Assembly: GCA_050740915.1 (NCBI GenBank) | Contig: JBOIEG010001140.1 | Span: 1-35,994 of the forward strand | From: Gammaproteobacteria bacterium | Lineage (GTDB): Bacteria; Pseudomonadota; Gammaproteobacteria; JBOHHR01 | Length of the DNA stretch: 35,994 nucleotides | Direction of reading: 5' to 3' | In this document: positions 1-35,774 of the stretch, piece after piece | How the letters are laid out: each line of letters starts with the position of its first letter | Numbering within the stretch: position 1 is the stretch's first letter | The notes under the pieces: model-generated | Told to the model about the DNA's origin: nothing | Database searches by the model: none | What the model saw: the letters and a program-made list of their open reading frames with translations, nothing else | Position numbers and translations under genes: made by a program

Positions 1-176
1 CGACCAAGCTATCGCGTTTCTCGGCGCTAACGCTCAGCGCGCACACCCCACACGCGACACCCAAACCGGACGCCTGCAACTGGGCTTAGAACCCGTTTTC
101 GGTGGGCCTTAAGTACCTAACCTATGAAGCCTTACTACTACGGTCGATCGTAATCAAACGCAAAGAGGATTGTCAG

Positions 177-2833: not shown

Positions 2834-2860
2834 CATCCCTCCGTTTAGCCGCACACCTAG

Positions 2861-3351: not shown

Positions 3352-3576
3352 ATGACAACGCGAAGCGAGCGCATCGAGTTGCGAGCAACCCCCGAGGAGA
3401 AGTCGCTGCTCGCCCGAGCGGCAGCCTACGAGCGGCTCGATCTGACCTCCTTCGTGATGAGATCCGTGTTGCCAGCGGCTGAAAAGATCGTTCGCCGGGC
3501 GGAACGTATCTCCCTCAGCGAGCGTGACACGAAGCGCGTCCTTGATCTCCACCAAAGCCAACGGAGAAGCTCCTGA
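3352..3576 (+). CDS. DUF1778 (TacA/AtaR/KacA-type, RHH) antitoxin, C-terminus altered by a 1-nt frameshift
   Basis: MTTRSERIELRATPEEKSLLARAAAYERLDLTSFVMRSVLPAAEKIV is typical DUF1778. After ...RVLDL the family-typical tail PPKPTEKLLRAARARRAR* sits in another frame (3549-3605). Confidence 0.75.
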   Translation: MTTRSERIELRATPEEKSLLARAAAYERLDLTSFVMRSVLPAAEKIVRRAERISLSERDTKRVLDLHQSQRRSS

Positions 3577-3604
3577 GGGCCGCCCGAGCGCGACGCGCGC
3601 GCTG

Positions 3605-4132: not shown

Positions 4133-4270
4133 GGGGGGTCACCAAGCAACACCCCCCAGGCAAGGCGCAGCGGCGCCGGAATAGCCCACCACTCCCTATT
4201 TCAAGCTGCTGCAACACGCCGCCTCCGCTCCCGCCGGGCAAGCCGCCGCGCCGCCATCGGTTGTTGCGGG

Positions 4271-4289
4271 TGCGACAATTTGTCGCATT
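4271..4289. promoter_or_regulatory. Candidate operator: 17-bp palindrome TGCGACAA-T-TTGTCGCA (copy 1 of a 19-bp element shared with 6655-6673)
   Basis: tgcgacaatttgtcgcatt is identical at 4271-4289 and 6655-6673. It has 8-bp perfect arms. It lies 21 bp upstream of a TATACT hexamer (4310-4315) and upstream of the aminotransferase-remnant/MbtH unit. Confidence 0.45.
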
Positions 4290-4324
4290 CCCTTTTGGGC
4301 CGTTATCTTTATACTGGACGCTCA

Positions 4325-5085
4325 ATGAACGAGTCAAAAAACGCAGCGGCGGTCCGTTCGGAAGGATGCATGCGCCGTGACGGCGATCCGCTCACTACAA
4401 GCGGTTTGGGTTGTCTGCGGGAAGATAGCGCTGACATCTTTCTCACGCGCCAATGCCGCGTTGAGTCCAACGCGCGTAGCTACCCGAGGCGGATCCCGAC
4501 CGCGTTACGTAGCGCTAAGGGAATTCTCGTCACCGATACCGAGGGCCGGACGTATATCGATTGCCTGGCCGGCGCCGGGGCACTGGCGCTCGGCCACGCG
4601 CAACCCGTCGTCGTCGAGGCCGTACAACAAGCGCTGAAAGAGTGCGTTCCCTGGCAAACCTTGGACCTCACTACTCCTATCAAGCACGAGCTCATGCAAG
4701 AGTTGCTTGCCAGCCTGCCCGGCAGCTTCGCATCGTGCGCTAAGATCCTGTTGTGCGCGCCCTCGGGCGCAGACGCGGTGGAGGCGGCATTAAAACTGGT
4801 CAAGACCGCAACCGGACGCCGGACGATGTGCGCGGCAAGGGGCTGATGGTTGGCGTTGAAATCGTGGATCGGGAGCACTGGGTATCCGGTCAGTTTGCGC
4901 CTCCGGCTAGCGCCGAGATGGCCAGGCGTATCCAGCGTCAGGCCTTGCGCTTCGGCCTCATTTTGGAGGCAGGCGGTCGATTCAACAGCGTGCTGCGCTT
5001 TTTGCCGCCGCTCATCGTGACTGCGGCGAATGTCGATGAGATCCTCGCGCGATTTACTGCCGCGGTGCGAGCCGCAGAAACCTAG
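4325..5085 (+). pseudogene. PvdH/EctB-like diaminobutyrate-2-oxoglutarate aminotransferase remnant (N-terminal ~165 aa joined out of frame to C-terminal ~88 aa; PLP-Lys region missing)
   Basis: N part: ESNARSYPRRIPTALRSAKGILVTDTEGRTYIDCLAGAGALALGH...DAVEAALKLVKTATGRR. C part (other frame): DVRGKGLMVGVEIVD...[29 protein letters not shown]. The junction at about 4812-4825 carries ccggacg twice in tandem. Alternative start ATG 4370. Confidence 0.7.
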
Positions 5086-5116: not shown

Positions 5117-5350
5117 ATGTCCTGGGACGATGATGACGACACTACGATCTACCACGTCGTGGCCAACCACGAAGAGCAATACTCGATCTGGCCCGAGTAC
5201 AAGAAGATCCCGAACGGCTGGCGGGCCGTAGGCAAGACAGGGCCCAAGGCCGAGTGCTTAGCCTACATCAACGAGGTATGGACCGATATGCGTCCCCTCA
5301 GCTTGCGCAAGGCAATGGAAGCTGAGCAGGAGGCGCAAGAAAAAGGCTGA
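5117..5350 (+). CDS. MbtH-like protein
   Basis: [63 protein letters not shown] carries the conserved W..W..W/MbtH signature. GGGAGG at 5106-5111 lies 5 nt before the ATG. Confidence 0.9.
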
Positions 5351-5358
5351 TCCTGATC

Positions 5359-5869
5359 TTGCTGGCGCTTGCGCCGCGAATGCAGCGTTGGCGATATATC
5401 GTGCGGCCAACCGGGCCGCGCTTGCCCTCCTTGCGGTCCTCGTGTTGGGTGGGGCTTGCGATCGGTGTCGCGCTGCGCCTTTCTCTGCCAAAGCTGGACG
5501 GCACTATCGAGTTGCCTGGATTGTACGCCTTGAGCACCGCGCGCGGTTCCGATGGTAGCTTGAAACTCGACTAGCAGGACGGTGCTCTTTGCGATCGCCT
5601 GATTAACGCCCTAGCTGCCGGGCTGTGTGCAACGCGTGCGGCTTGCCGACGGCGCCATAGGCGCGAGCGAACGCCTGGTAGTTTCCCCGGGCCGCGAGGC
5701 AGCTGGCAGCTTGCACATCGCGGGCGGGCAATCTGGCCACCCGCTGTCGCCCTACTGTCGAGACCAGCAGACACATTGGCTGCGAGAGAATGCATCCCCG
5801 TTTCTTGCCGGCGTCGCTCGGCACCGCTTGAGACTCATGCCGAAAAATCCCCGGCTACCATCCATTTGA
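5359..5869 (+). pseudogene. Penicillin-amidase/PvdQ-like (Ntn hydrolase, S45) acylase remnant: only N-terminal and C-terminal ends remain
   Basis: N end: ...RLSLPKLDGTIELPGL (the family-typical SLPxLDGTxxLPGL after a signal anchor, itself frameshifted). C end: GASERLVVSPG...GGQSGHPLSPYCRDQQTHWLRENASPF...HRLRLMP (typical GQSGxPxSPHYxDQ tail). About 0.5 kb remains. Confidence 0.6.
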
Positions 5870-6593
5870 ACCGGCGTGTGGCGTGGATGGGTGTGGCAGC
5901 TGCTAGCGCGGCCATGTAGTTCGCTTTGACAGAGAGCGTTGTAACTCGCCACGGCTCGCCGTTGTCCCATTCCGGCTGAACGACGACATCCGCTTGCGTG
6001 CGGTACTTGAACCGGATAGAAAACGCCTTAAGAGGCAGGGAGAGTCCCAGACCACGGCCCTTGATGTAGGCCTCCTTGTGAGTCCAGAGCCGGAAAAACA
6101 GCTGCCGCCGTTGCTTAACCGGCTCGCACGCTAATAGCTCAAGCTCCGCATCGGAGAATACGTGCCGTGCGAGGGCCTGCCAATCAAGGCCGCGATCGGC
6201 GTACTCCACGTCGATCCCCACCGCCTGGGTTGAGACGGCGAATAGGCCCAATCCCCGCGAGTGGGCAAGATTGAAATGCACTGTGCCATGGGGTGCGGTG
6301 AGTCGCGGCTTTCCGTATTTATTCGTTTCGAACACCAGAGATTGGGGTGGACGATCGAGGTATATCGAGAGGATCTGGCGCATCGCCGCCCTGGCGTTGA
6401 ACCAGCGACGCCTATGGCTTGCGAAGTAAAAGCGGGACCCGCGCAGAAGCTCGGTATCGTCCAGTAATTCGCGCAACGATTCGGCACCAATGGGATCGTC
6501 GAGCGGGATCGTCCAGAGGTGAGCTTCGTTCGGCTTCAGCTGCACGCTGGCGCGCGTTTCAGGGTTGCAAAATGCCATAACATCCGAATGCAC
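5835..6593 (-). CDS. Sfp-type 4'-phosphopantetheinyl transferase
   Basis: KYGKPRL, FNLAHSRG, GIDVEY and WTHKEAYIKGRG motifs. The preferred start is GTG 6593, preceded by GGAGGG (6606-6601, 7-nt spacer). Alternatives are ATG 6578 and the ORF-track TTG 6620. Confidence 0.85.
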   Translation of the reverse strand: MHSDVMAFCNPETRASVQLKPNEAHLWTIPLDDPIGAESLRELLDDTELLRGSRFYFASHRRRWFNARAAMRQILSIYLDRPPQSLVFETNKYGKPRLTAPHGTVHFNLAHSRGLGLFAVSTQAVGIDVEYADRGLDWQALARHVFSDAELELLACEPVKQRRQLFFRLWTHKEAYIKGRGLGLSLPLKAFSIRFKYRTQADVVVQPEWDNGEPWRVTTLSVKANYMAALAAATPIHATRRFKWMVAGDFSA

Positions 6594-6654
6594 GGATCTG
6601 CCCTCCAAATCCCAGACCAAAGATTATATCCGCTAGAGCTCTGCGTGAACCGCC

Positions 6655-6679
6655 TGCGACAATTTGTCGCATTGTCGCA
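6655..6679. promoter_or_regulatory. Candidate operator: same 17-bp palindrome plus an extra direct half-site TTGTCGCA, in the divergent PPTase/NRPS1 intergenic region
   Basis: tgcgacaatttgtcgca (6655-6671) followed immediately by ttgtcgca (6672-6679). Confidence 0.45.
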
Positions 6680-6690
6680 CCGCCATGCCT

Positions 6691-6720
6691 TTGTTAACAT
6701 GGTTTAAACAACGATATAAC
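6691..6720 (+). promoter_or_regulatory. Possible sigma70-type promoter for NRPS1
   Basis: TTGTTA (6691-6696), 18-nt spacer, TATAAC (6715-6720). The ATG is at 6744. On the opposite strand a perfect TATAAT (complement of 6623-6628) faces the PPTase gene. Confidence 0.35.
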
Positions 6721-6743
6721 AACGATACTGAAAAGCTGCACCC

Positions 6744-8480
6744 ATGCCAGAGGCATTGCACTTCGTTTCCGATCTCGTCTCTCTCCTTCGCCTCCGCGCG
6801 GCACAGCAGGGCGAGCGCACGGCCTATGTATTTCTGGCCGATGGCGAGAGCGAGTCGGTCCGGCTGAGTTACGCGGCGCTCGACCAAGAGGTCCGGGCCT
6901 TGGCCGGACAGATCCAGCGCGTGGCGGCCAACGGCGCGCGGGCGCTTCTGCTATACCCGCCCGGTCTGGAATACATCAAGGCATTCTTCGCCTGCCTTTA
7001 TGCAGGTGTCGTTGCGGTGCCAGCGCACCCGCCGGCTCGCCGGCATCCTCAACGCCTTGCGCCGATAGTGAGGGATGCGGCGCCGGTGCTGGTATTGACC
7101 ACGACAGATCTCGAGGCTCGTCTTTGCGCCCACACGGCGGGAAACGGCGAGTTGGAGCAGCTTTATTGCTTGGCAACGGATGCATCGCCATCGGCAGCTC
7201 CGGCCGATTTGACGCCGCGCCCTATCGGCCAGGACCACTTGGCATTTCTACAGTACACCTCGGGATCGACGGGCGATCCGAAAGGCGTGATGGTGACGCA
7301 CGGCAATCTACTCGCCAACGAGCGAGCGATACAGCAGCGTTTCGGCCACACGCAGGATTCCATCGTGGTGGGTTGGCTTCCTCTCTACCACGACATGGGT
7401 CTGATAGGGAATGTTCTGCAACCGGTGTATTGCGGGGCAACGGCGATACTCATGCCGCCGATGGCCTTTCTGGACAGCCCTATACGCTGGCTACGCGCCA
7501 TCGCGCGATACCGGGCACATACCAGCGGTGGTCCCGATTTCGCGTATGCGCTATGTGCCCGCAAGATCACGGAGGAACAGAAGCGCGGCCTAGACCTGAG
7601 CACATGGCGGGTCGCCTTCAACGGTGCGGAGCCGGTGCGGGCGAGCACCCTGGAACGCTTCACCGAGGCTTTTTCCGAATGCGGCTTCCGTCGCACGGCG
7701 TTCTTTCCGTGCTACGGTCTGGCCGAGGCGACCTTGTTCGTCACCGGACCTTCAAACGGCGAGTCCGTGTCCGTTGGGCGATTCGACCGTACGGGCCTGA
7801 GCGAGCAACGCAAGGCGGCGCCGTGCAGCGAAGCCACCGCCTCAGTGGATCTGGTCTCCTGCGGTCAGAGCGCTGACGAACACAGGCTATCTGTGGTCAA
7901 TCCCATCACCCTCACCCCTTGTTCAGAAGGCCAAGTCGGCGAGATCTGGGTGGCAGGGCCCAGTGTTGGCGAAGGCTACTGGAACCGGCCGACGGCATCC
8001 GAACGCACCTTTCGCGCCCGGCTTTCCAATGGATCACCAGAAGCGTTTTTACGCACCGGTGACCTGGGGTTTTTGGATCGCGCTCACCTGTACATCACCG
8101 GGCGCCACAAAGACTTGATCATCCTTTGCGGAAGAAACTATCACGCCGAAGATCTGGAACGGGCGCTGGATGAGAGCGCGCAAGGCATTCGGCCCCGATC
8201 GAGTGTAGCGTTCTCGGTCCCCGGTGAGGACGAAGAGCTGCTGGTCGTGGTGGCGGAGGCGGATCGGCCATACCTAAGACAACACGGCCCTGCTCATATT
8301 TTTGCGTCGATACGGCGCGCCCTCGCGGAGGCCTGCGACGCGCCTGGCGCTGAGATAGTGCTGGTACGGCGTGGCGCCGTGCTTAAAACCTCGAGCGGCA
8401 AGATCCGGCGGCGAGCATGCCGGCAAGCCTATCTCGACGGCGCCCTTCCCGCGCTGGCGCGCACGGCGCCGCCTGAATCG
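6744..8480 (+). other. NRPS1 domain: fatty acyl-AMP ligase (FAAL) loading domain
   Basis: AMP-binding fold at the extreme N-terminus. YTSGSTGDPKG (7254-7286), GWLPLYHDMGL and TGDLGF motifs. It is followed directly by a carrier domain. Confidence 0.8.
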
Positions 8481-11400
8481 CCGGCGCAAACAGAGTGGAG
8501 GGCTGTCACCCCCGCCGATGAGCGTCTGCAGATTGGTAGGGCGTTGCGCAGGAGCTCGCCCTCGGAGCGGGCATCGGCGATACGCCGCTTAGTGATCCAC
8601 CAGATCGCGCAGCGACTTCGAATCGCGGAATCGGCTGTAGCACTCGGATTGACGATCCAGGCCACTGGCCTCGATTCGTTGCGGGTGCTGGAGCTCAAGC
8701 ACGACCTGGACGCCGAGCTGGGGATCGAGGCGCCGCTCGCCTGGTTTTTTTCCGATGCATCGATCGCAGAGACCGCCGCTCGGCTCGCGCAAGCGTTTAG
8801 CCTTAGGCCGGAAGCGGCTGATGCGCAGCGACCGGGCGCTGGCGTGCAACCGGGTGCGTTGTCGGCGACGCAAGGTTCGATGTGGGCCGTGCACCAGCTG
8901 GAGCCAGGGAGCGTCGCGTATAACCTGCATCTGGCCCTCAGGGTTCACGGAGCGGTGGACGCCGAAACGCTGCGGCAGGGTTTGGAGCACCTGTTGGACA
9001 GGCATGACATGCTACGCACCGTCTACCCCTGCGGTGGGGAAATCGTGACGCCGGCAGTGCTGGCGCGGCGTGAGTTGCCGCCGTATTTCGCGCTGGTGGA
9101 CGCCGCTACCTGGTCGTCGGCAGAACTGCAACGCGATATGAGTTCGCGGGCAAGCGAGCCTTTTGATTTGCAGCGCGGGCCGGTGGTACGCATGAGCTTG
9201 TATCGCCAAGGCGAACGCGTCCATACGCTGTTGTTGTGCGCCCATCACATCGCCGTAGACTTGTGGTCGGTATTGCTTTTCCTCGATGAGCTGCTCTCGG
9301 TCTACACGCTGCTGGGTGTCGATCGCAGCCCCGATCTGCCGCCCCCAACGGGGCATTATCGTGATTTCATTGGTTGCCAGCAGGCCTATCTCAAGTCCGC
9401 GGCTAGCGCCGCGGACTTGGCGTATTGGCGCAACCGGCTTGCAGGCGAGTTGCCGGTGCTGGCGCTACCTGCGGATTCACCTCGCTCAACAACACGCCGT
9501 TACCACGGAGGCTCTCACGCGCTTCAACTGCAACCCGGGCTGAGCTCCAAGCTCAAAGAGCTAGGCCGAAAGCAAGGCGCCACCCTGTTCATGACCTTGC
9601 TCGCGGCGTACAAGGTGCTGCTATACCGATATACCCATCAGACCGACATTATCGTTGGTGCGCCGAGCAGCGGACGCACGGATAGGCGCTATGCGCGGGT
9701 CGTCGGTAATTTTGTCAATCCGGTTGCGCTGAGGACCTATCCTTCCCCCGAGCTACCGTTCGCGACCTATCTCCAACACGTGCGAGAGGCGGTCCTGGGA
9801 GCGCTCGCCCATGAGCAATATCCGTTTTCGCTACTCGTTGAGCGCCTACAACCGAAGCGCCACGGTGATGAATGGCCCATCTATCAAACGATGTTTGTGT
9901 TGCAGCAAGCGCAATCAGGGATCGATCCAAACCTCTCGCAACTTGCCTTGGGTGAGGACGGAATAGCGTTCTCTCTAGGCGAGTGGCAGGTCCACTCCAT
10001 CGCGATCCCTGAACGGGTCGAGAACTTCGATCTCAAGCTCATGGCGGTGGAGTGTGAGCAAGGGTTGATCTTCTCCTTCCAGTATCGCCGCGAGTTGTTC
10101 CGACAAGAAACGATTGCCCAAATAGCCGCGCACTTTGATGTTCTCTTGCGGGGGATTATCGCTAACCCGAATGAACGCCTCGCCCAATTGCCGCTGCTGA
10201 CGGAGCCTGAGCGGTATCGACTGATTGTTGAGTGGAATGCTACTCAGACGGAGTATCCCAAGGATAAGTGCATTTATGAGTTGTTTGAGGCACAGGTCGA
10301 GCGCAGTCCTCAAGCCACGGCGGTGGTCTATGAAGACCAATCGCTCAGTTATCGTGAGCTCAATGCGAAGGCCAAACAGCTCGCGCATCACTTGCGTAGC
10401 TTGGGGGTGGGGCCCGACACGTTGGTGGCCATTTGTGTGGAGCGCTCCCTAGGGATGATCGTTGGTCTTTTGGGTATTCTCAAGGCGGGGGGTGCCTATG
10501 TGCCGCTTGACCCGACCTACCCCAAGGAGCGGTTGGCGTACATGCTGGAGGATGCTCGAGCTGCCGTTCTGCTCACCCAAGCGCGTCTACGAAACTCTTT
10601 GCCCGAACACCCGATGCTGCTCTGTCTAGACAGTGATTGGGTATCAATTGGGCGTCGAAGCAAGAAGAATCTTGCGAACCTTGCGTCACCGCTTAATCTT
10701 GCTTACGTCATCTACACCTCGGGCTCGACGGGAAGGCCGAAGGGGGTGGGGATTGCGCATGGCAGTTTAACGAACTTCCTGACAGGCATAACGCGCAAGC
10801 TTTCGCTATGCAGTGATGACATTGTACTGGCAGCGACGTCATCTTCTTTTGACATTTCCGTGCTTGAGCTTTTGGGTCCCGTAATCGTCGGCGGGCAGAC
10901 GCTGGTAGCGAGTCAGGAGGAAGCACAGGATCCCACCCGCCTTGGAGCCAGGATTGGTCAGTCGAGGGCGACAGTGATGCAGGCAACGCCTTCCGCGTGG
11001 CGTTGGCTATTGATGAGTGGTTGGCGAGCGGATAGTTCGCTGAGGATCCTTTGCGGGGGTGAACCATTGTTTGCTGATCTGGCTACGCAGTTGCTCAACG
11101 GCGTAACGGATTTCTGGAATCTATATGGTCCCACCGAAACGACGGTATGGTCGACGACGAAGGGGATCGCGTCCGCGCAGGACGCTCTTTTGATTGGCCG
11201 TCCGATTGCGAATACCGAGATTTATTTGTTAGATGAGTTTCTTGAGCCCGTACCGATAGGTGTATCGGGCGAGTTATACATTGCTGGTGCGGGTTTAGCG
11301 CGTGGGTATCTGAAGCGACCTGAGTTAACGGCGGAACGATTCATTCCCAGTCCATTTAGTGCAGAGCCGGGAGAGCGGTTGTACCGGACGGGGGACTTAG

Positions 11401-14400
11401 CGCGGTATCGGCCGGATGGAAACATTGAATACCTCGGGCGCATTGACCATCAGGTGAAGGTGCGAGGTTTTCGGATTGAGTTAGGGGAGATAGAGGCGCG
11501 GCTATTAGAGCACCCGCAGGTCAAGGAGGCGGTAGTGATTGCCCGCGAGGACACACCTGGGGAGAAGCGTCTTGTGGCCTATGTAGTGGGTAGCGGGGAC
11601 TGGCCAGAGAATGAGACTATCGAGCAGCTAAGGACGTATCTCGGAGAGGTCTTGCCGGACTACATGGTTCCGGCAGCATTCGTCTTCCTAGACTCACTAC
11701 CACTCACGCAGACGGGCAAACTAGATCGGAATGCATTACCGGTTCCCGATGTCACTGCCCAACTGGCTTGTCAATACCTTGCACCACGTACGCAGGTCGA
11801 AGCCGCGCTTACGCAGATCTGGGCGGACGTATTGCGGCTTGAACGGGTGGGCGTCCACGACAACTTCTTTACCCTCGGTGGTGATTCCGTGCGCAGCATC
11901 CAGATGGTCAGTCGTGCCCACGAGTCCGGCGTGCAGTTGACCCCGCGCCAAGTGTTCCAGCATCCCACCGTGGCCGAGCTCGCTCAAATCGCGGAAGCAG
12001 CTATCCCGGTGGAATCGCTTGCGATTGCACCCGTGCGTACCGTAACGAGCGATCGCACTTACTTGACGCCGGCGGATTTTCCCTTAGCGAGCCTGAGCCA
12101 ACAAGAGCTCGATGCGCTCCCGTTCGAGCCCCGCGATATCGAAGACATCTACCCGCTGGGGCCCATGCAGGAAGGCATGCTGTTCCATAGCCTCGCCCAG
12201 CCAGGGAGCGGTGTTTATGTCATGCAAGACCGCTATGCGTTAAGGGGAACGATTGATGTTCAAGCCTTTGGTGACGCTTGGCAAGCGGTAGTGGATCATC
12301 ATCCCATCCTGCGGACTTCGTTTTTTTGGCGCACCGAGCTACGGCCGCACCAGGTCGTAACGCGACGCGTTGAGCTCCCCTTCGAGTATCTCGACTGGCG
12401 CGGGTTAGAACCCGTGGAGCAAGAGGCGCGCATCGAAGCCGTGCTCGAGGCGGAGCGGCGGGCAGGTTTCGATCTTCACCGCGCGCCGCTGTTACGCCTG
12501 CGTCTGGTGCGGCTGACTGGCGATCGTTATCGCTGCATCCGCAGCTTCCACCATATCCTGCTCGACGAGTGGTGCACCTCGCCCCTGTTGCTCGACTTTC
12601 GAGCTGTTTATGGGGCCTTGGTTCGGCGCGAGCGGCCGCCTGTTCTAACTGCCCGCCCGTTTCGCGATTACATCGCGTGGCTGCAACGCCAGGACACGGA
12701 CGCGGCCGAGCGTTTCTGGCGTAATTATCTGCGCGGTTTCACCGAGCCGACCCCGCTCGCGGTGGACCGGTCAGACATCGCCTCTGGAGGCGAAGCCGGC
12801 ACGGTGGCGGACGCGATCGACGAGCTATCCGCCACCGATACGGCTGCGCTGCGCCGGCTCGCCAAGCGCGAACGGCTCACGCCCAATTCCTTTGTGCAGG
12901 CCGCTTGGGCACTGCTCTTAAGCCGCTATAGCGGGCGCGAAGAGGTGTTGTTCGGCGTGACCGTCGCGGGGCGGCCGGCGGTACTGCCGGGCAGGGAGTC
13001 TATGCTCGGACTGTTCGTCAATAGCCTGCCCTTGCGCGTTCGGTTTAAGCCCGAGCAAAGGCTGATCGGGTGGTTACGCGAGTTGCTTGTTGCTAGTGTC
13101 GAGGTCCGCGAATACGAATACGCTCCCCTGGGGCGGATCCAGTCCTGGTCTGAGGTTCCACGCGGGGAACCGTTGTTTAACCACCTCCTGGTGTTCGAGA
13201 ACATCCCGGTCGACCCGAGCCTGGGCGAGGCCAGCGACGGGTTGAGCATGGCGTATGGCGGAAGCCGTGTTCATACGAACTATCCCATCACCGCCACGGT
13301 GATCCCCGGATCGGGACTGACGTTTAAGCTCACCTATAGCCAGGATCGCTTCGAAGCCATTGCGATGCGCCGCATGCTGGGCCACTTCCGGCGCTTGCTG
13401 GAGGAGATGATCCGGCGGCCTGCGGCGCAGATCGGTGAGCTTGAGATGCTCGCAGAGGCGGAATGGCGCCAAACCGTCGACGGCTGGAATCGCACACGAC
13501 GGCACTATCCGCCGCCCGCGGATTTTGTGGCGATATTCGAAGAACAGGCGCGCCGGACGCCCGAGACCTGTGCAGTGGTTTGCGGCGGCGAAGCGTTAAC
13601 CTATCGGGCGCTCAATGCGCGCGCCAATCGTGTGGCGCTGGACCTCATCGACCGCGGGGTCGGGCCCGAGGTGATCGTTGCAGTGCTTGATGAGCGGGGT
13701 ATCGAGGTGCTGGTAGCCTTCCTCGCCATCCTCAAGGTAGGCGGAGTCTACTTGCCGCTAGACCCGCGCGATCCCGAGGCGCGTTGGCGGTTTGTGATCG
13801 AGACGGCGCAGCCGAGGTTGGTAGTGGCCGGCGCGGCGCGGGCGGATCGGGTTCGCCGCCTAGTATCACCGACCCGGTTAACACGAGTGGTGACTCTGGC
13901 GGATCTCGCCCGAGATCGATCCGATCAAAATTCGGCCCGATACACCGACCCTCGCTGTCTTGCCTACATTATCTTCACCTCGGGTTCGGCCGGCACGCCT
14001 AAGGGCGCGATGATCACCCGGCAAGGGATGTTTAACAACTTCATGACCAAAGTGCCGGCGCTCGGGCTGACGGCGAGTGATGTTGTCGCACAGACGGCGC
14101 CGCCGTGTTTCGACATCTCGGTGTGGCAGTTCCTGACGGCCTTGTTGTGCGGGGCGCGGGTCGCGATCCTCCCGGATGCGAGCGTGCAGGACCCGCAGGC
14201 GCTGCTCGGAGCCCTAAGCGCGCACGCTATCACGGTGATCGAGGTGGTCCCCTCGCTGATCCGTGCCTTGTTGGATCGCCCTCATCCAGACCACGAGCTA
14301 CCCGAGTTGCGCTGGTTACTCCCGACCGGCGAGGCCTGTCCTCCCGAGCTGTGCCGGCGCTGGCGCGAGCGATACCCCCACGTCGGCTTGCTCAATGCGT

Positions 14401-16760
14401 TTGGGCCGGCCGAGTGTGCCGACGATGTCGCTTACCACCGCATCACGAGTCAGGATGCGTCGCGTTCGAGGGTGCCGATCGGGCGGCCGGTGGACAACCT
14501 CCAGTTATACGTGCTCGACAACCGACTCGAGCCGATACCGATCGGCGTGCCCGGCGAGCTGTGCGTGGCCGGCGTTGGTGTCGGCCGTGGTTACCTCCGC
14601 CGCCCGGATGCGAGCGCCGAGCGCTTCGTGCCCAACCCCTTTGGCCCTCCCGGAAGCCGCTTGTATCGCAGCGGTGATATCGCCAGTTATCTCGCGGATG
14701 GCATTTTGGACTTCCTCGGGCGGGCGGATCATCAGGTGAAGATCCGCGGCCATCGCGTCGAGTTGGGCGAAGTGGAGGCCCAACTCGCGCGCCATCCTGC
14801 GATTGGAGCAATAGCGGTCACGATCCATGAACCCACGGCAGGGGATAGGCGCTTGGTGGCGTATTATGTGGCCCGTCACGAGGCAGAGCCACCCCGGGCG
14901 GAAGCGCTGCGGGCATATGCACGGTCGGCTTTGCCAGACTACATGATCCCTTCGGCCTTTCTGGCCGTAGAGGCGCTGCCGCTCAATCCAAACGGCAAGT
15001 TAGACCGCAAACGCCTGCCCGTGCCGACATACAGCAGCGAGCCAAAATCCGCCGCCACGGCGCGAACGCCCACCGAGGAGATCCTGAGCGGGATCTGGGC
15101 AAAGGTTTTGGGGATCCCGAGGGCAGGGGTCGATGAGAGCTTCTTTGCCCTCGGCGGCCACTCGCTGCTCGCCACGCAGATCGTCTCCCGCATCGCCACT
15201 GCCTTTGGGATCGAGTTGCCTTTGGCCGCGGTCTTCGATGCACCAACCGTCGCGCAGTTGGCTGCGCTTGTGGATGCCGCACTTGGGCATCGAGAGCGAG
15301 TTGCGGCACCGCCGCTCACGATTGCGGCGCGCGACCAACTGCTGCCGCTCTCCTATGCCCAGCGGCGGCTTTGGTTTATGAGCCAGGTTGAGCCGGGTAA
15401 TGCCTTTTATCACTTTCCTGCGGCGGTGCGCCTGGTAGGTAACCTGGATATCGAAGCAGTCGAGCGCGGCCTGCACGCCATCGTGCAGCGGCACGAAGTC
15501 TTGCGCACGATTTTCATCGAGCGCGACGGTGAACCGGAGCAGGCCGTTCTGGCGGATGCCGGCGTTACGCTCGCTTGCGAGGACTTGACAGGGCACGCCC
15601 CGGATCGACGCGAGCCCGAATTGCAACGGCGTATTCAGGCGGAGATAGCGCAGCCTTTTGATCTCGCGGCAGGACCCTTGGTGCGCATGCGGCTGTTCGT
15701 GCTCGAATGCGGTTCGGCCACGAAGACAACCGAACATGTCTTGCTCCTTATATTTCACCACATCGTGTTTGACGGCTGGTCGTTCGGTGTCTTGGCCCGT
15801 GAGCTCGGCGAGCTGTATTCGGCGGCCGTTGGCCAGCGCTGCGCCGAGTTGCCGTCATTGCCGTTCCAGTATGGCGACTATGCCCAGTGGCAACGCCGGT
15901 GGCTGCAGGGACAGGTACTAGACCGGGGACTCGCCTATTGGGTGGATCAGTTGCGAGATGCCCCCGGGTTTTTGGCCATAGCGGCCGGCCGGCATGGCGA
16001 TTCCGCCGCGCAGCCGCCCGGCGCGGAGCACGAGCTCGCCATCGAGCAGGGCTTTAGCGAAGCCTTGCGCGAGCTATCCCGCAAGCAGGGGGTCACGCTT
16101 TTCATGACCCTGCTCGCGGCCTTTGACGTCTTACTGTGTTACGCCAGCGGGCAAGAGGATCTGGTGGTAGGCACCGATGTCGCCAATCGCAACCGCACCG
16201 AAACCGAAGGGCTGATTGGATTTTTCATCAATCTGTTGGCGTTGCGTGTGCGCCTCGCCGGGGACCCGCCGTTCAACGAGCTGTTGGCGCGCGTGCGCGA
16301 CACCACGCTGGCTGCGTACGCCCATCAAGACGTTCCTTTTGACAAGGTGGTGGAGGCGATCAAACCCATACGCCGCATCGATGTTGCGCCGATCTTTCAG
16401 GTGAAGCTGGTGGTGCACAACGTACCGCTTGCCGAAGTCCGCTTGCCAGGCGTTGAGCTGCAGGCGGTGCCGATCCGGCGGCAGGTCGCCGAGCTCGATC
16501 TGGTGCTGCACGTATATGAGGAGGAAGCCTTGAGGTGTGTGTTTGAATACCGTAGCGATCGGTTTGATGCGCGCGCGGTGCGGCTTTTTGCCGAGCAGTA
16601 TCAACACATCGTTTGGCGCGCAGCGGGTTCACCCGACGTCCCGGTTAGCGTGTTCGTTGAAGAGCTTACGGCGCTGGAACAGCGTAACGCCGCAGTTGAG
16701 ACTGGACGCGTCAACAGCCTTCGAACGATCCGGCGTAAGGGCATTCGGGTTTCGCCCTGA
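6744..16760 (+). CDS. NRPS1 (3338 aa): FAAL-T-C-A(Gly)-T-C-A(Dab-like)-T-C
   Basis: Uninterrupted 10,017-nt ORF with ordered NRPS core motifs (see domain features). Confidence 0.95.
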   Translation: MPEALHFVSDLVSLLRLRAAQQGERTAYVFLADGESESVRLSYAALDQEVRALAGQIQRVAANGARALLLYPPGLEYIKAFFACLYAGVVAVPAHPPARRHPQRLAPIVRDAAPVLVLTTTDLEARLCAHTAGNGELEQLYCLATDASPSAAPADLTPRPIGQDHLAFLQYTSGSTGDPKGVMVTHGNLLANERAIQQRFGHTQDSIVVGWLPLYHDMGLIGNVLQPVYCGATAILMPPMAFLDSPIRWLRAIARYRAHTSGGPDFAYALCARKITEEQKRGLDLSTWRVAFNGAEPVRASTLERFTEAFSECGFRRTAFFPCYGLAEATLFVTGPSNGESVSVGRFDRTGLSEQRKAAPCSEATASVDLVSCGQSADEHRLSVVNPITLTPCSEGQVGEIWVAGPSVGEGYWNRPTASERTFRARLSNGSPEAFLRTGDLGFLDRAHLYITGRHKDLIILCGRNYHAEDLERALDESAQGIRPRSSVAFSVPGEDEELLVVVAEADRPYLRQHGPAHIFASIRRALAEACDAPGAEIVLVRRGAVLKTSSGKIRRRACRQAYLDGALPALARTAPPESPAQTEWRAVTPADERLQIGRALRRSSPSERASAIRRLVIHQIAQRLRIAESAVALGLTIQATGLDSLRVLELKHDLDAELGIEAPLAWFFSDASIAETAARLAQAFSLRPEAADAQRPGAGVQPGALSATQGSMWAVHQLEPGSVAYNLHLALRVHGAVDAETLRQGLEHLLDRHDMLRTVYPCGGEIVTPAVLARRELPPYFALVDAATWSSAELQRDMSSRASEPFDLQRGPVVRMSLYRQGERVHTLLLCAHHIAVDLWSVLLFLDELLSVYTLLGVDRSPDLPPPTGHYRDFIGCQQAYLKSAASAADLAYWRNRLAGELPVLALPADSPRSTTRRYHGGSHALQLQPGLSSKLKELGRKQGATLFMTLLAAYKVLLYRYTHQTDIIVGAPSSGRTDRRYARVVGNFVNPVALRTYPSPELPFATYLQHVREAVLGALAHEQYPFSLLVERLQPKRHGDEWPIYQTMFVLQQAQSGIDPNLSQLALGEDGIAFSLGEWQVHSIAIPERVENFDLKLMAVECEQGLIFSFQYRRELFRQETIAQIAAHFDVLLRGIIANPNERLAQLPLLTEPERYRLIVEWNATQTEYPKDKCIYELFEAQVERSPQATAVVYEDQSLSYRELNAKAKQLAHHLRSLGVGPDTLVAICVERSLGMIVGLLGILKAGGAYVPLDPTYPKERLAYMLEDARAAVLLTQARLRNSLPEHPMLLCLDSDWVSIGRRSKKNLANLASPLNLAYVIYTSGSTGRPKGVGIAHGSLTNFLTGITRKLSLCSDDIVLAATSSSFDISVLELLGPVIVGGQTLVASQEEAQDPTRLGARIGQSRATVMQATPSAWRWLLMSGWRADSSLRILCGGEPLFADLATQLLNGVTDFWNLYGPTETTVWSTTKGIASAQDALLIGRPIANTEIYLLDEFLEPVPIGVSGELYIAGAGLARGYLKRPELTAERFIPSPFSAEPGERLYRTGDLARYRPDGNIEYLGRIDHQVKVRGFRIELGEIEARLLEHPQVKEAVVIAREDTPGEKRLVAYVVGSGDWPENETIEQLRTYLGEVLPDYMVPAAFVFLDSLPLTQTGKLDRNALPVPDVTAQLACQYLAPRTQVEAALTQIWADVLRLERVGVHDNFFTLGGDSVRSIQMVSRAHESGVQLTPRQVFQHPTVAELAQIAEAAIPVESLAIAPVRTVTSDRTYLTPADFPLASLSQQELDALPFEPRDIEDIYPLGPMQEGMLFHSLAQPGSGVYVMQDRYALRGTIDVQAFGDAWQAVVDHHPILRTSFFWRTELRPHQVVTRRVELPFEYLDWRGLEPVEQEARIEAVLEAERRAGFDLHRAPLLRLRLVRLTGDRYRCIRSFHHILLDEWCTSPLLLDFRAVYGALVRRERPPVLTARPFRDYIAWLQRQDTDAAERFWRNYLRGFTEPTPLAVDRSDIASGGEAGTVADAIDELSATDTAALRRLAKRERLTPNSFVQAAWALLLSRYSGREEVLFGVTVAGRPAVLPGRESMLGLFVNSLPLRVRFKPEQRLIGWLRELLVASVEVREYEYAPLGRIQSWSEVPRGEPLFNHLLVFENIPVDPSLGEASDGLSMAYGGSRVHTNYPITATVIPGSGLTFKLTYSQDRFEAIAMRRMLGHFRRLLEEMIRRPAAQIGELEMLAEAEWRQTVDGWNRTRRHYPPPADFVAIFEEQARRTPETCAVVCGGEALTYRALNARANRVALDLIDRGVGPEVIVAVLDERGIEVLVAFLAILKVGGVYLPLDPRDPEARWRFVIETAQPRLVVAGAARADRVRRLVSPTRLTRVVTLADLARDRSDQNSARYTDPRCLAYIIFTSGSAGTPKGAMITRQGMFNNFMTKVPALGLTASDVVAQTAPPCFDISVWQFLTALLCGARVAILPDASVQDPQALLGALSAHAITVIEVVPSLIRALLDRPHPDHELPELRWLLPTGEACPPELCRRWRERYPHVGLLNAFGPAECADDVAYHRITSQDASRSRVPIGRPVDNLQLYVLDNRLEPIPIGVPGELCVAGVGVGRGYLRRPDASAERFVPNPFGPPGSRLYRSGDIASYLADGILDFLGRADHQVKIRGHRVELGEVEAQLARHPAIGAIAVTIHEPTAGDRRLVAYYVARHEAEPPRAEALRAYARSALPDYMIPSAFLAVEALPLNPNGKLDRKRLPVPTYSSEPKSAATARTPTEEILSGIWAKVLGIPRAGVDESFFALGGHSLLATQIVSRIATAFGIELPLAAVFDAPTVAQLAALVDAALGHRERVAAPPLTIAARDQLLPLSYAQRRLWFMSQVEPGNAFYHFPAAVRLVGNLDIEAVERGLHAIVQRHEVLRTIFIERDGEPEQAVLADAGVTLACEDLTGHAPDRREPELQRRIQAEIAQPFDLAAGPLVRMRLFVLECGSATKTTEHVLLLIFHHIVFDGWSFGVLARELGELYSAAVGQRCAELPSLPFQYGDYAQWQRRWLQGQVLDRGLAYWVDQLRDAPGFLAIAAGRHGDSAAQPPGAEHELAIEQGFSEALRELSRKQGVTLFMTLLAAFDVLLCYASGQEDLVVGTDVANRNRTETEGLIGFFINLLALRVRLAGDPPFNELLARVRDTTLAAYAHQDVPFDKVVEAIKPIRRIDVAPIFQVKLVVHNVPLAEVRLPGVELQAVPIRRQVAELDLVLHVYEEEALRCVFEYRSDRFDARAVRLFAEQYQHIVWRAAGSPDVPVSVFVEELTALEQRNAAVETGRVNSLRTIRRKGIRVSP
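8560..8800 (+). other. NRPS1 domain: carrier protein (ACP/T0)
   Basis: ATGLDSLRVLELKHDL; Ser codon 8676-8678. Confidence 0.8.
8850..10180 (+). other. NRPS1 domain: condensation C1 (lipo-initiation position)
   Basis: LSATQGSMWAVHQL. The His motif reads HHIAVDLWS (9243-9269), with Leu in place of the usual Gly. Confidence 0.8.
10220..11740 (+). other. NRPS1 domain: adenylation A1, code DILQLGLVWK (Gly-like)
   Basis: YTSGSTGRPKG (10713-10745), FDISVLE, NLYGPTETTVW, GELYIAGAGLARGY, YRTGDLARY, GKLDR (Lys codon 11718-11720). The 10-residue code was extracted by alignment to GrsA positions. It is one conservative change from the Gly code DILQLGLIWK as I recall it. Confidence 0.75.
11790..12000 (+). 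other. NRPS1 domain: T1
   Basis: FFTLGGDSVRSIQ; Ser codon 11886-11888. Confidence 0.85.
12120..13430 (+). other. NRPS1 domain: condensation C2
   Basis: IEDIYPLGPMQEGMLFH. The His motif reads HHILLDEWC (12549-12575), with Glu in place of Gly. Confidence 0.8.
13480..15020 (+). other. NRPS1 domain: adenylation A2, code DIWELTADDK (Dab-like)
   Basis: FTSGSAGTPKG (13974-14006), FDISVWQ, NAFGPAECADDV, GKLDR (Lys codon 14997-14999). The code equals what I recall for the Dab-activating domain of PvdL; this is unverified. Confidence 0.6.
15070..15280 (+). other. NRPS1 domain: T2
   Basis: FFALGGHSLLATQ; Ser codon 15162-15164. Confidence 0.85.
15330..16650 (+). other. NRPS1 domain: terminal condensation C3 (LCL-like)
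   Basis: LPLSYAQRRLWFMSQ; HHIVFDGWS (15756-15782). No A or T domain follows before the stop. Confidence 0.8.
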
Positions 16761-16772
16761 TCCGAACCTAGC

Positions 16773-17825
16773 ATGAAGCAGCCCGATAAACCCGATGCTG
16801 TTCCGCGATTAAGCGCCGTGCGGCGGCGCGCTTTGTCTGCCGCCAGCGGGTTGGTGCGATTCGGCGGCAGCTTTCCGCTGCGCATCGAGCCGACAGCACA
16901 AGGTGTTGACCTGGCTTCTTGGGCAACAGGCACACATGCCATGATCGAAAAGAAACTGGCCGAGCATGGCGCTCTTCTGTTTCGTCATTTCGATATCGAA
17001 GGCATCCAAGCCTTTGAGCGCTTCGTGAGGGCGGTGGCGGGCGGCGCGCTAGAATACCGGTTCCGGGCCTCGCCCCGCACCGAGGTAGGACACCATATAT
17101 ACACCGCGACCGACTATCCGGCCGACCAGAGCATCTTCCCTCACAACGAGCACGCCTATTCCCCGGTCTGTCCGCTGCGCCTGTTTTTTTATTGCCAGCA
17201 GCCGGCGGCTATAGGCGGGGAGACACCCATCGGTAGCGGGCGCGCGATCACACAAGCTATCGACGTCGGCGTGTGCGCCCGTTTCAAGCGCAAGCAGGTG
17301 CTGTACGTCCGTAACTACGGCGATGGATTCGGTCTGCCGTGGCAAACCGTATTTCAGACTTCGGATAAAGCGCAAGTCGAGCGCTACTGCAAGGAGGTTG
17401 GGATAGCGATCGAATGGAAGTCAGGCGATCGCCTTTGCACGCGTCAAGTGGGTCCGGCCCTAGTCCGGCACCCGCGCTTGGGCGAGCGGATCTGGTTCAA
17501 CCATGCTACTTTTTTTCATGTCACGACCTTACCGTCCCCGGTGCGCGAGGCGTTGCTCAGCGAGTTTGACGAGGCAGATCTTCCGCAGAACACCTATTAC
17601 GGCGACGGCTCGGCGATAGAAACCGAGACGCTTGAGTACCTGCGCGCGGTTTATCGAGCGGCGATGGTGAGCTTTGCTTGGCAGCCCGGCGATATCCTTC
17701 TGGTAGACAACATTTTGACCGTGCATGGACGCCGGCCGTTTAGCGGCGCACGCCGGGTGCTGGTCGCGATGGCGGACACGTTTTGTCCCCGAGATCTTGC
17801 GGTTCAGGCGGAGAAATTGGCGTGA
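16773..17825 (+). CDS. SyrP/TauD-family Fe(II)/2-oxoglutarate-dependent hydroxylase (NRPS-associated amino-acyl beta-hydroxylase type)
   Basis: GALLFRHF, FPHNEHAY (His 17142-17144, Glu 17148-17150), GGETP, ILLVDNILTVHGRRPF (His 17724-17726). It is in the same frame as NRPS1, 4 sense codons after the NRPS1 TGA. No obvious SD precedes it. Confidence 0.9.
   Translation: MKQPDKPDAVPRLSAVRRRALSAASGLVRFGGSFPLRIEPTAQGVDLASWATGTHAMIEKKLAEHGALLFRHFDIEGIQAFERFVRAVAGGALEYRFRASPRTEVGHHIYTATDYPADQSIFPHNEHAYSPVCPLRLFFYCQQPAAIGGETPIGSGRAITQAIDVGVCARFKRKQVLYVRNYGDGFGLPWQTVFQTSDKAQVERYCKEVGIAIEWKSGDRLCTRQVGPALVRHPRLGERIWFNHATFFHVTTLPSPVREALLSEFDEADLPQNTYYGDGSAIETETLEYLRAVYRAAMVSFAWQPGDILLVDNILTVHGRRPFSGARRVLVAMADTFCPRDLAVQAEKLA

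Positions 17826-25555: not shown

Positions 25556-35774
<10,219 letters not shown>

What the first reader, a model, noticed from the sequence alone, without database searches (positions are those of the whole stretch)
4271..4289. Identical 19-bp palindromic element upstream of both transcription units of the NRPS cluster
tgcgacaatttgtcgcatt occurs at 4271-4289 (upstream of the aminotransferase-remnant/MbtH unit) and again at 6655-6673 (PPTase/NRPS1 divergent region). Its core is a perfect 8-1-8 palindrome, TGCGACAA-T-TTGTCGCA. A 19-nt exact repeat confined to two promoter regions of one cluster is unlikely by chance. It looks like the binding site of a dimeric cluster regulator, and no regulator gene is present in this window. 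It does not resemble a Fur box or the pyoverdine IS box as I remember them.
Basis: seen in the sequence. Interest (0 to 1): 0.6.

Follow-up and report, generated by a model that had tools for sequence, protein, structure and literature searches.

The report
RegA-type activator box at NRPS promoters
The repeated palindrome is real, but it is not a private switch of this gene cluster: it is the genome-wide docking site of the redox-sensing RegB/RegA two-component system, placed directly against the promoters of about 40 metal-uptake genes, so this siderophore-like peptide cluster appears to be switched on by respiratory redox state rather than by a classical iron repressor.

Summary
Observation confirmed: TGCGACAATTTGTCGCATT is exact at 4271-4289 and 6655-6673, and its core is a perfect 8-1-8 palindrome. 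It is not confined to the cluster. The 17-mer occurs 15 times exactly, and 41 times with up to 2 mismatches, across the 5.8-Mb genome (expected 0.0005).

Flanks are not conserved, so it is not a REP or MITE element. The box always abuts a sigma-70 promoter: box, then the -35 hexamer, 16-17 nt, then TAnnnT. This places the box centre near -44. The geometry holds at 28 of 39 oriented sites here and at 125 sites in Nitrosomonas, Nitrosospira, Gallionella, methanotrophs, Nitrococcus and others.

Downstream genes are TonB-dependent receptors, FecI/FecR pairs, a DUF3450 gene of the kind usually found beside ExbB/ExbD/TonB genes, MbnP, SCO1, PCuAC and, here, the NRPS operon.

The box fits the published RegA, PrrA and RegR motifs. 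It co-occurs with regA (odds ratio 29, P=3e-18). In 12 families it lies 1.27-1.41 kb upstream of regA; in the four loci read through, a 420-440-aa regB-sized ORF fills that gap. This genome has regB-regA plus two RegA paralogues inside box-rich loci.

Best reading (about 0.8): a RegA-family activator site.

The parts
4268..4287 (.). RegA-type box 1: GGG + TGCGACAATTTGTCGCA. The palindrome is 4271-4287, and the promoter-distal GGG is part of the extended motif.
   Evidence: Exact match. The extended consensus (G/A)GG-TGCGACAATTTGTCGCA-TT comes from 125 sites in other genomes. The box matches the published RegA, PrrA and RegR motifs.
4288..4315 (+). Predicted promoter P1: -35-like TTCCCT (4288-4293), 16-nt spacer, -10 TATACT (4310-4315). 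Predicted start is near 4322. It drives the aminotransferase remnant and mbtH.
   Evidence: Sequence read. The geometry is the same as in 28 of 39 genome sites and 125 foreign sites. The generic promoter scan does not call it because the -35 is weak.
4325..5085 (+). Class-III aminotransferase remnant, a pseudogene. The N-terminal piece is 4325-4846 and the C-terminal piece is 4753-5085, in another frame.
   Evidence: Pfam Aminotran_3 matches profile positions 9-108 and 330-402 of 403 only.
5117..5350 (+). MbtH-like protein gene.
   Evidence: Pfam MbtH, 3e-24. The ATG at 5117 follows GGGAGG.
5835..6577 (-). 4'-phosphopantetheinyl transferase gene, divergent from NRPS1. The ORF is open to 6620; the ATG is at 6577.
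   Evidence: Pfam ACPS, 2e-17. Sequence read.
6655..6679 (.). RegA-type box 2 (6655-6671) plus a directly repeated extra right half-site TTGTCGCA (6672-6679).
   Evidence: Exact match. Sequence read.
6672..6700 (+). Predicted promoter P2: -35 TTGTCG (6672-6677), 17-nt spacer, -10 TAACAT (6695-6700). Predicted start is near 6707. It drives NRPS1-TauD-NRPS2-NRPS3.
   Evidence: The -10 lies at +40..45 from the box start, as at the other sites.
6744..35774 (+). NRPS operon. NRPS1 is 6744-16760 (3 AMP-binding, 3 C). A TauD-family dioxygenase is 16773-17825. NRPS2 is 17783-25555. NRPS3 with a thioesterase is 25545-35774.
   Evidence: ORFs. Pfam Condensation, AMP-binding, PP-binding and Thioesterase. 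Pfam TauD, 1.5e-42.

Best explanation
The palindrome is the binding site of a RegA/PrrA/RegR (RoxR)-family response regulator, the output of the redox-sensing kinase RegB. A RegA dimer would bind GCGAC-N5-GTCGC immediately upstream of a weak -35 hexamer, with the box centre near -44. From there it would recruit or stabilise sigma-70 RNA polymerase, in the manner of a class II activator.

In the window this places two promoters under RegA control. P1 drives the aminotransferase remnant and mbtH. P2 drives NRPS1-TauD-NRPS2-NRPS3. The divergent PPTase promoter may also be affected.

The two sites belong to a regulon of about 40 promoters in this genome. It covers siderophore-type TonB receptors, FecI-type sigma factors, FecR, a DUF3450 gene of the ExbB/TonB neighbourhood type, and His/Met-rich envelope proteins. 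The metallophore would therefore be produced together with its uptake machinery when the respiratory chain signals reducing stress or a metal shortage.

Shown here: the motif, its distribution, its fixed promoter geometry, its link to regA, and the presence of regBA and paralogues. Inferred: that RegA physically binds it, that it activates, and what the signal is.
For: 1. Motif fit. The 17-mer fits all three published family motifs, as quoted in PMC5506826: RegA SSGNVRDNHYSNCSS 12/12, PrrA YSCGGC(5)GWCRMA 11/12, RegR GNGRCRTTNNGNCGC 10/11.

2. The regulator is present. The genome encodes regB (C1214:3290-4558, with the GGSANPF quinone motif) and regA (C1214:2727-3257). The best NCBIfam hits are the ActS/PrrB/RegB and ActR/PrrA/RegA models. 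RegA matches PDB 3rqi at 4e-46 and the PrrA DNA-binding domain 1umq at 4.5e-14, with the recognition helix ARRLxMHRRTLQR conserved. An intact RegA paralogue (C391) and a truncated one (C600) lie inside loci carrying 3 and 6 boxes.

3. Co-occurrence. Among 300 genomes of the class, 36 of 42 with the box have RegA, against 44 of 258 without it (odds ratio 29, P=3e-18). Of 14 named box-bearing genomes, 13 have RegA.

4. Link to the regulator's own operon. In 12 genomes of different families the box lies 1269-1411 bp upstream of the regA start. In the four loci read through, a 420-440-aa regB-sized ORF begins 33-63 nt after the box and regA follows about 1.3 kb on. In five others the box faces a divergent gene.

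5. Fixed geometry. At 125 foreign sites the -10 lies at +40..45 (A41 90%, T45 94%). Here, 28 of 39 oriented sites have TAnnnT at +39..41, against 1 of 39 on the other side and a background of 1.9% (P=1e-39). The -35 hexamers are weak, as at activator-dependent promoters.

6. Literature. Deleting regA in Methylomonas sp. DH-1 lowers a TonB receptor gene, the tonB-exbBD operon and feo to 3-23% of wild type (PMC13274454).
Against: The RegA and RegB proteins score below NCBIfam's curated equivalog cut-offs (180 against 250 bits and 273 against 350 bits).

Forty-four RegA-positive genomes lack a strict box, and 6 box-positive genomes lack a detected RegA. Five of those 6 have a single site and one is an incomplete congener.

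This genome's own regBA has no recognisable box upstream.

In Methylomonas, ChIP detected RegA only at feo, not at the receptor or tonB promoters.

Published alphaproteobacterial RegA sites are degenerate with variable spacing, unlike this near-invariant box.

The RegA idea first came from earlier AI notes of this scan, so it was a lead that I then tested, not an independent discovery.
Confidence: 0.8

Rival explanations
1. The box is the operator of a different global metal-responsive regulator, for example one of the five Fur-family paralogues with diverged specificity. That regulator would act as a repressor by occluding the -35.
For: The regulon looks like an iron-starvation regulon: TonB receptors, FecI/FecR, NRPS. 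The genome has 5 Fur-family genes. Canonical Fur boxes are almost absent, with one site at 3 mismatches and none on box-bearing contigs at up to 5 mismatches. Odd-centred palindromes are typical of Fur-family sites (established knowledge).
Against: The box has 7-8 mismatches to the 19-bp Fur consensus. A strictly fixed position relative to the -10 in over 150 promoters suggests an activator rather than a repressor. The box tracks regA, not a near-universal gene such as fur, and lies next to regA or its operon in at least 12 families.
Confidence: 0.08
2. The effective regulator in this genome is the orphan RegA paralogue on C391, a dedicated metal-uptake regulator that shares RegA's DNA specificity but answers to another kinase or signal. 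The housekeeping RegB/RegA pair would not be the main player.
For: The paralogue keeps the receiver aspartate and the same recognition helix, GNVSAAARRLGMHRRTLQRKL. It lies beside three boxes and box-driven secreted proteins. A second, truncated copy lies among six boxes on C600. The canonical regBA has no box of its own here. This genome has 30 sites with up to 1 mismatch, against 7 and 2 in its congeners.
Against: The 80 RegA-positive genomes of the class sample other than this one and G133 show one RegA copy each at this threshold, and most box-bearing genomes are among them. This includes G041 and G250 (6 and 21 sites), and N. europaea (16 sites) in a separate search. No paralogue is therefore needed. 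No partner kinase gene was seen in the 130-aa ORF listing of C391.
Confidence: 0.1
3. The box is a cluster-specific operator for a pathway regulator of this NRPS cluster, or a REP/MITE-like dispersed repeat.
For: Within the window the box occurs only at the two promoter regions.
Against: There are 41 sites on about 30 contigs, in front of unrelated genes. The same 19-mer occurs in more than 118 loci of other genera. Flanks carry no conserved repeat sequence. Sites are orientation-locked to promoters.
Confidence: 0.02

Closest known systems
RegA / PrrA / RegR (ActR) binding sites of Alphaproteobacteria (Rhodobacter capsulatus, R. sphaeroides, Bradyrhizobium japonicum)
   Same: Both are GCG...CGC inverted repeats with an A/T-rich centre, and the box fits all three published motifs. 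The regulator has the same architecture, a receiver domain plus a Fis-type HTH, with a nearly identical recognition helix. The partner kinase carries the quinone-binding GGXXNPF motif (motif as described in PMC8191878).
   Different: The alphaproteobacterial sites are degenerate, with variable half-site spacing, and ChIP-seq gave no strong motif (PMC4263372; PMC5506826). Here the 17-mer is nearly invariant, has fixed N5 spacing, and is fused to the -35 at a fixed distance. The regulon is envelope metal uptake rather than photosynthesis, CO2/N2 fixation or denitrification.
RegB/RegA of the gammaproteobacterial methanotroph Methylomonas sp. DH-1 (PMC13274454)
   Same: RegA positively controls a TonB-dependent receptor, the tonB-exbBD operon and feo. 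The same functional classes follow the box here: TonB receptors, and a DUF3450 gene of the ExbB/TonB neighbourhood type.
   Different: That paper reports no cis-element. It found ChIP enrichment only at feo and reads the regulon as iron uptake. Whether those promoters carry this box could not be checked, because that genome cannot be addressed by name with these tools.
Class II activator sites overlapping the -35 (CRP at -41.5; LuxR lux box at -42.5)
   Same: A palindromic dimer site sits directly against a weak -35, at a fixed distance from the -10. This is a comparison of mechanism from established knowledge.
   Different: The protein family is different, the centre is near -44 rather than -41.5 or -42.5, and contact with RNA polymerase is untested.
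Fur boxes in front of siderophore and fecIR genes (Pseudomonas, E. coli)
   Same: The same kinds of genes are controlled: NRPS, TonB receptors and FecI-type sigma factors.
   Different: The sequence is unrelated (7-8 of 19 mismatches). The box lies upstream of the -35 rather than over the -10 or the start. The logic is probably activation, not repression.

Membership tests
RegA/PrrA/RegR-type operator | Inverted GCG...CGC repeat matching the published consensus motifs | tested here: met
   RegA SSGNVRDNHYSNCSS 12/12, PrrA YSCGGC(5)GWCRMA 11/12, RegR GNGRCRTTNNGNCGC 10/11 (motifs quoted from PMC5506826).
RegA/PrrA/RegR-type operator | A cognate RegA-type regulator (receiver plus Fis-type HTH, recognition helix ARRLxMHRRTLQR) is encoded in the genome | tested here: met
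   C1214:2727-3257 is such a gene. Its best NCBIfam hit is NF033791 over the full length (3e-53), although at 180 bits it is below the 250-bit equivalog cut-off. It matches PDB 3rqi at 4e-46 and the PrrA domain 1umq at 4.5e-14, with the helix conserved.
RegA/PrrA/RegR-type operator | A partner RegB-type kinase with the GGXXNPF quinone site | tested here: met
   C1214:3290-4558 lies directly upstream of regA and contains GGSANPF. Its best NCBIfam hit is NF033792, ActS/PrrB/RegB (3e-81; 273 bits against a 350-bit cut-off).
RegA/PrrA/RegR-type operator | The site and the regulator gene co-occur across genomes, and the site lies at the regulator's own operon | tested here: met
   Odds ratio 29, P=3e-18 in 300 genomes. 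The box lies 1269-1411 bp upstream of regA in 12 families, with a regB-sized ORF confirmed in between in four loci. Of 14 named box-bearing genomes, 13 have RegA.
RegA/PrrA/RegR-type operator | Direct binding of RegA protein to the site (EMSA or footprint) | not testable with these tools
RegA/PrrA/RegR-type operator | Degenerate half-sites with variable spacing, as described for Alphaproteobacteria | tested here: not met
   The 17-mer is near-invariant with fixed N5 spacing at more than 150 sites. This departs from the described sites. It is not a defining requirement of the family.
Fur box | Match to GATAATGATAATCATTATC (19 bp; 7-1-7 core) | tested here: not met
   The best match in either promoter region has 7-8 mismatches of 19. 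No hit with up to 5 mismatches lies on the window contig.
PvdS IS box (pyoverdine promoters) | TAAAT-N16-CGT upstream of the biosynthetic genes | tested here: not met
   The window has five 1-mismatch matches against 11.7 expected by chance, and none lies in the two promoter regions.
REP / MITE-like dispersed repeat | Conserved sequence beyond the palindrome, with no fixed relation to promoters | tested here: not met
   Flanks have about zero information content apart from the GGG, the -35 and the -10. Sites are orientation-locked to a -10 at +40.

The most novel reading that the evidence does not exclude
In many Beta- and Gammaproteobacteria, including ammonia oxidisers, iron oxidisers, methanotrophs and this uncultured lineage, RegB/RegA may be the master activator of envelope metal acquisition. 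It would act through a near-invariant box fused to the -35. It would sit above FecI/FecR cell-surface-signalling cascades, TonB receptors and Cu chaperones (MbnP, SCO1, PCuAC) and, in this organism, a lipopeptide-type NRPS metallophore. Metallophore synthesis would then be governed by respiratory redox state (the metal demand of oxidases and monooxygenases) instead of, or above, Fur. The product could serve copper as much as iron.
Probability: 0.4. Interest if true: 0.7.

Novelty: new variant of a known kind. Interest (0 to 1): 0.5.

Why it matters
RegA/PrrA is a textbook global redox regulator whose DNA motif has remained frustratingly degenerate. ChIP-seq in Rhodobacter gave no strong motif, and pattern searches failed in Acidithiobacillus.

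The box described here is almost invariant and sits at a fixed promoter position. Regulons can therefore be read directly from genome sequence in Nitrosomonas, Nitrosospira, Gallionella, methanotrophs and many uncultured lineages. Those regulons point to metal uptake (TonB receptors, FecIR cascades, copper chaperones) as the main output.

For this cluster, it predicts that a siderophore-like NRPS product is induced by redox or oxidase stress without a recognisable Fur box. That would change how one would try to elicit the compound and what metal one would test it with.

The prediction is directly testable in cultured strains. N. europaea carries 16 boxes, and a regA deletion strain of Methylomonas sp. 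DH-1 already exists.

Tried and rejected
- **REP/MITE-like repeat:** rejected. Flanks are unconserved and sites are promoter-locked.
- **Fur box, PvdS IS box, sigma-54 promoter:** none is present in the two control regions.
- **Cluster-specific operator:** rejected by the genome scan.
- **Copper-only regulon:** the cross-genome tally has many Cu items (MbnP, SCO1, PCuAC, DUF1775, CtaG, NosL, HMA). In this genome, however, the receptors are siderophore-type (TIGR01783). The metal is therefore left open.
- **Phylogenetic footprinting of the two sites:** not possible. The two same-genus genomes lack this NRPS region at DNA level.
- **Literature search for the exact half-sites:** returned only unrelated primer sequences. 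Searches on Cu/MbnP/palindrome and on RoxR/RegA motifs found no description of this box.
- **Original motif papers:** PMC2698480 and PMC419920 are not held. The motifs were therefore taken as quoted in PMC5506826.
- **Generic sigma-70 scan:** does not call P1 or P2 because their -35 hexamers are weak.
It is not excluded, but it does not fit the geometry conserved at the other sites.

Full report
**1. Observation**

The 19-mer TGCGACAATTTGTCGCATT is exact at 4271-4289 and 6655-6673 (sequence read). Its core is a perfect 8-1-8 palindrome. Chance expectation in the window is 0.02 matches, and none of 100 shuffles reached the observed count. The two copies share nothing beyond the 19 nt, so they are not a local duplication.

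**2. Window context**

Reading left to right, Pfam and ORF analysis give the following:

| Coordinates | Strand | Feature |
|---|---|---|
| 3524-4132 | + | GNAT acetyltransferase |
| 4271-4287 | . | Box 1 |
| 4325-5085 | + | Class-III aminotransferase broken into an N-terminal and a C-terminal piece (profile positions 9-108 and 330-402 of 403) |
| 5117-5350 | + | MbtH |
| 5835-6577 | - | PPTase |
| 6655-6671 | . | Box 2 |
| 6744-16760 | + | NRPS1 |
| 16773-17825 | + | TauD-family dioxygenase |
| 17783-25555 | + | NRPS2 |
| 25545-35774 | + | NRPS3, ending in a thioesterase |

**3. The box is not cluster-specific**

The window is contig C1140 of a 5.8-Mb, 1403-contig assembly with 58% G+C.
- The 17-mer occurs 15 times exactly on 12 contigs, and the 19-mer 10 times on 7 contigs.
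- 41 sites have at most 2 mismatches. Four control half-sites of the same composition give 1-4. The expectation for the exact 17-mer is 0.0005.
- Flanks are not conserved, so it is not a REP or MITE element.
- Several sites are tandem, overlapping by 2 bp with a 15-bp offset, on C391, C459, C583 and C600.

**4. Fixed promoter geometry**

The central base marks a direction: it is T when read towards the promoter.
- Of 39 sites oriented this way, 28 have TAnnnT at +39..41 from the box start. Only 1 of 39 does on the other side, and the genome background is 1.9% (P=1e-39).
- The hexamer directly after the box is -35-like but weak: TTCCCT, TTCCCA, TTTACA, TGTTCA.
- The 19-mer GTGCGACAATTTGTCGCAT was found in more than 118 loci of other genomes. 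These include Nitrosomonas europaea, N. eutropha, N. aestuarii, Nitrosospira, Gallionella, Ferrigenium, Methyloglobulus and other Methylococcaceae, Porticoccaceae, Thiomicrorhabdus, Nitrococcus mobilis and several Alteromonadales.
- At 125 such sites the unselected flanks show a -10 at +40..45 (A at +41 in 90%, T at +45 in 94%). They also show a weak -35 at +17..22 and a G-run just upstream of the box.
- With the -10 at -12..-7, the box spans -52..-36 and is centred at -44.
- In the window this gives two promoters. P1 is TTCCCT (4288-4293), 16 nt, TATACT (4310-4315). P2 is TTGTCG (6672-6677), 17 nt, TAACAT (6695-6700).

A position this rigid, next to weak -35 hexamers, is what activator-dependent promoters look like. 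That step is an inference.

**5. What the box controls**

In this genome the first downstream genes are as follows:
- TonB-dependent receptors (C33, C383, C600, C1208). The complete one passes the TIGR01783 siderophore-receptor cut-off.
- Five FecI-type ECF sigma factors (C403, C627, C729, C950, C1196) and a FecR (C496).
- A DUF3450 protein (C274), a family usually found beside ExbB/ExbD/TonB genes. That association is recalled, not tested here.
- A BNR-repeat exported protein.
- A Met/His-rich periplasmic protein and a His-rich outer-membrane protein.
- A family of secreted proteins without Pfam hits.
- The NRPS operon.

Across the other genomes, 114 downstream ORFs gave this Pfam tally: Plug/TonB receptor 26, Phenol_MetA_deg-type OMP 8, MbnP 4, BNR_2 4, thioredoxin-like 3, SCO1/SenC 2, and single cases of PCuAC, DUF1775, CtaG, NosL, HMA and PepSY_TM.

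In N. europaea (16 boxes, 0 for the control pattern) the boxes precede fecI-fecR pairs, six TonB receptors and a di-haem peroxidase.

The regulon is envelope metal acquisition with a clear copper flavour in many genomes. In this genome the receptors are siderophore-type, so the metal served by the NRPS product stays open.

**6. Which regulator**

Earlier AI notes of this scan suggested RegA for similar GCGNC-N5-GNCGC boxes. I treated that as a lead and tested it five ways.

(a) *Motif fit.* The box fits the three published family motifs, as quoted in PMC5506826: RegA 12/12, PrrA 11/12, RegR 10/11 specified positions.

(b) *The regulator is present.* The genome encodes regB-regA on C1214. RegB carries the GGSANPF quinone motif. 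Both proteins have the ActS/PrrB/RegB and ActR/PrrA/RegA models as their best full-length NCBIfam hits, although both score below the curated cut-offs. RegA aligns with the PrrA DNA-binding domain (PDB 1umq, 4.5e-14), with the recognition helix ARRLxMHRRTLQR conserved. It matches the Burkholderia regulator 3rqi at 4e-46.

(c) *Paralogues in box-rich loci.* An intact paralogue (C391:5086-5679) and a truncated one (C600:2127-2561) have the same helix. They sit inside loci with three and six boxes.

(d) *Co-occurrence.* In a sample of 300 genomes of the class, drawn mostly one per family, 42 have the box with up to 1 mismatch and 80 have RegA. Thirty-six have both (odds ratio 29, P=3e-18). Of 14 named box-bearing genomes, 13 have RegA.

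(e) *Location at the regulator's own operon.* In 12 genomes of different families the box lies 1269-1411 bp upstream of the regA start. In the four loci read through, a 420-440-aa regB-sized ORF begins 33-63 nt after the box and regA follows about 1.3 kb on. In five others the box faces a divergent gene, such as an ExbB-like gene or an OMP gene. In several further genomes the box lies just downstream of regA.

A conserved site at or beside the regulator's own operon is the classical comparative-genomics criterion for pairing a motif with its factor.

Caveats:
- The genomes are not phylogenetically independent.
- Forty-four RegA-positive genomes lack a strict box.
- This genome's own regBA has no box upstream.
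- Nothing here shows binding.

**7. Rivals**

- *Fur-family variant operator.* This is the main alternative. The gene set looks like an iron-starvation regulon, the genome has five Fur-family genes, and canonical Fur boxes are nearly absent. However, the sequence is unrelated to a Fur box (7-8 of 19 mismatches), the position is fixed, and the box tracks regA.
- *Paralogue as the working regulator.* The C391 paralogue rather than canonical RegA may be the working factor here. This is a variant of the main reading and cannot be settled by sequence.
- *Other promoter types.* No PvdS IS box or sigma-54 promoter is present.

**8. Mechanism proposed**

RegB senses the quinone pool and a redox-active cysteine (literature quoted in PMC8191878). 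Under reducing stress it phosphorylates RegA. A RegA dimer binds the box at -44 and activates sigma-70 promoters.

In Methylomonas sp. DH-1, regA deletion reduces a TonB receptor gene, tonB-exbBD and feo to 3-23% of wild type (PMC13274454). This agrees with activation of this gene class. ChIP in that study detected only feo, and no motif was reported.

For this cluster the prediction is RegA-dependent co-induction of mbtH (P1) and the NRPS operon (P2), together with the receptors and FecI-type sigma factors elsewhere in the genome. The divergent PPTase gene has a perfect TATAAT on the minus strand, 2 bp further from the box than the canonical distance. Bidirectional action is possible but unsupported.

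**9. Comparison and novelty**

The site belongs to the RegA/PrrA/RegR kind. It differs from the described alphaproteobacterial sites in three ways:
- It is nearly invariant, with fixed N5 spacing.
- It is fused to the -35.
- It heads a metal-uptake regulon.

No paper found in six searches describes this box. Other agents of this scan have noted it in other genomes.

I rate it a new variant of a known kind, of moderate interest. What replaces it is a more general and testable statement.

Noticed in passing
window 6707-6728: A perfect tandem direct repeat, AACAACGATAT / AACAACGATAC (2 x 11 bp), starts at the predicted P2 transcription start, inside the NRPS1 leader. It could be the site of a second regulator (an 11-bp period suits OmpR/PhoB-type regulators) or a leader element.
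   Followed up: no
window 6672-6679: An extra copy of the right half-site, TTGTCGCA, directly follows box 2 and overlaps the -35. This gives three half-sites. Box 1 has no such extension.
   Followed up: partly
window 6623-6630 (minus strand): A perfect TATAAT faces the PPTase gene, 25 nt from box 2 instead of the canonical 23 nt. Box 2 might therefore also serve the divergent promoter.
   Followed up: no
window 4325-5085: The class-III (PvdH/EctB-like) aminotransferase behind box 1 is a remnant. Only profile positions 9-108 and 330-402 of 403 survive, in two frames. Contig C459 of the same genome has a box pair in front of another aminotransferase-like N-terminus (YIDCLTGAGALALGYSHPVV).
   Followed up: partly
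genome contigs C391:5086-5679 and C600:2127-2561: Besides the canonical regB-regA on C1214:2727-4558, there are two extra RegA-like genes with the same recognition helix. One is intact with no adjacent kinase. The other has lost its receiver N-terminus. Both are embedded in box-rich loci.
   Followed up: partly
genome contigs C391:2124-2720, 3330-4010, 4079-4732 and C600:5286-6011: A family of about 200-240-aa secreted proteins has a conserved '...P(E/N)DKV...' stretch and paired cysteines. They have no Pfam or NCBIfam hit, and each lies behind a RegA-type box.
   Followed up: no
genome contigs C600:813-1556 and C323:~2003-3104: A Met/His-rich periplasmic protein (HHLHMSM, HHTHMHMH) and a His-rich outer-membrane protein (EEGHAHAP, EEEGHHHEG) lie behind boxes. 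This composition suggests copper or another soft metal.
   Followed up: no
loci L149, L150, L153, L156 (other genomes): The box lies 33-63 nt before the start of a regB-sized ORF that is followed by regA. This implies autoregulation with very short or absent leaders. This genome's own regBA lacks such a box.
   Followed up: partly
N. europaea loci L164-L179: Nitrosomonas europaea carries 16 boxes with up to 1 mismatch (control pattern 0). They lie in front of fecI-fecR pairs, six TonB receptors, a di-haem cytochrome c peroxidase and a BNR protein. Many of these promoters have GATAAT as the -10, which might overlap Fur-like sequence.
   Followed up: partly
whole genome: The genome has five Fur-family genes but almost no canonical Fur boxes (one site at 3 mismatches). 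The NRPS region is absent at DNA level from both same-genus genomes, which are much smaller (3.2 and 2.3 Mb against 5.8 Mb).
   Followed up: partly
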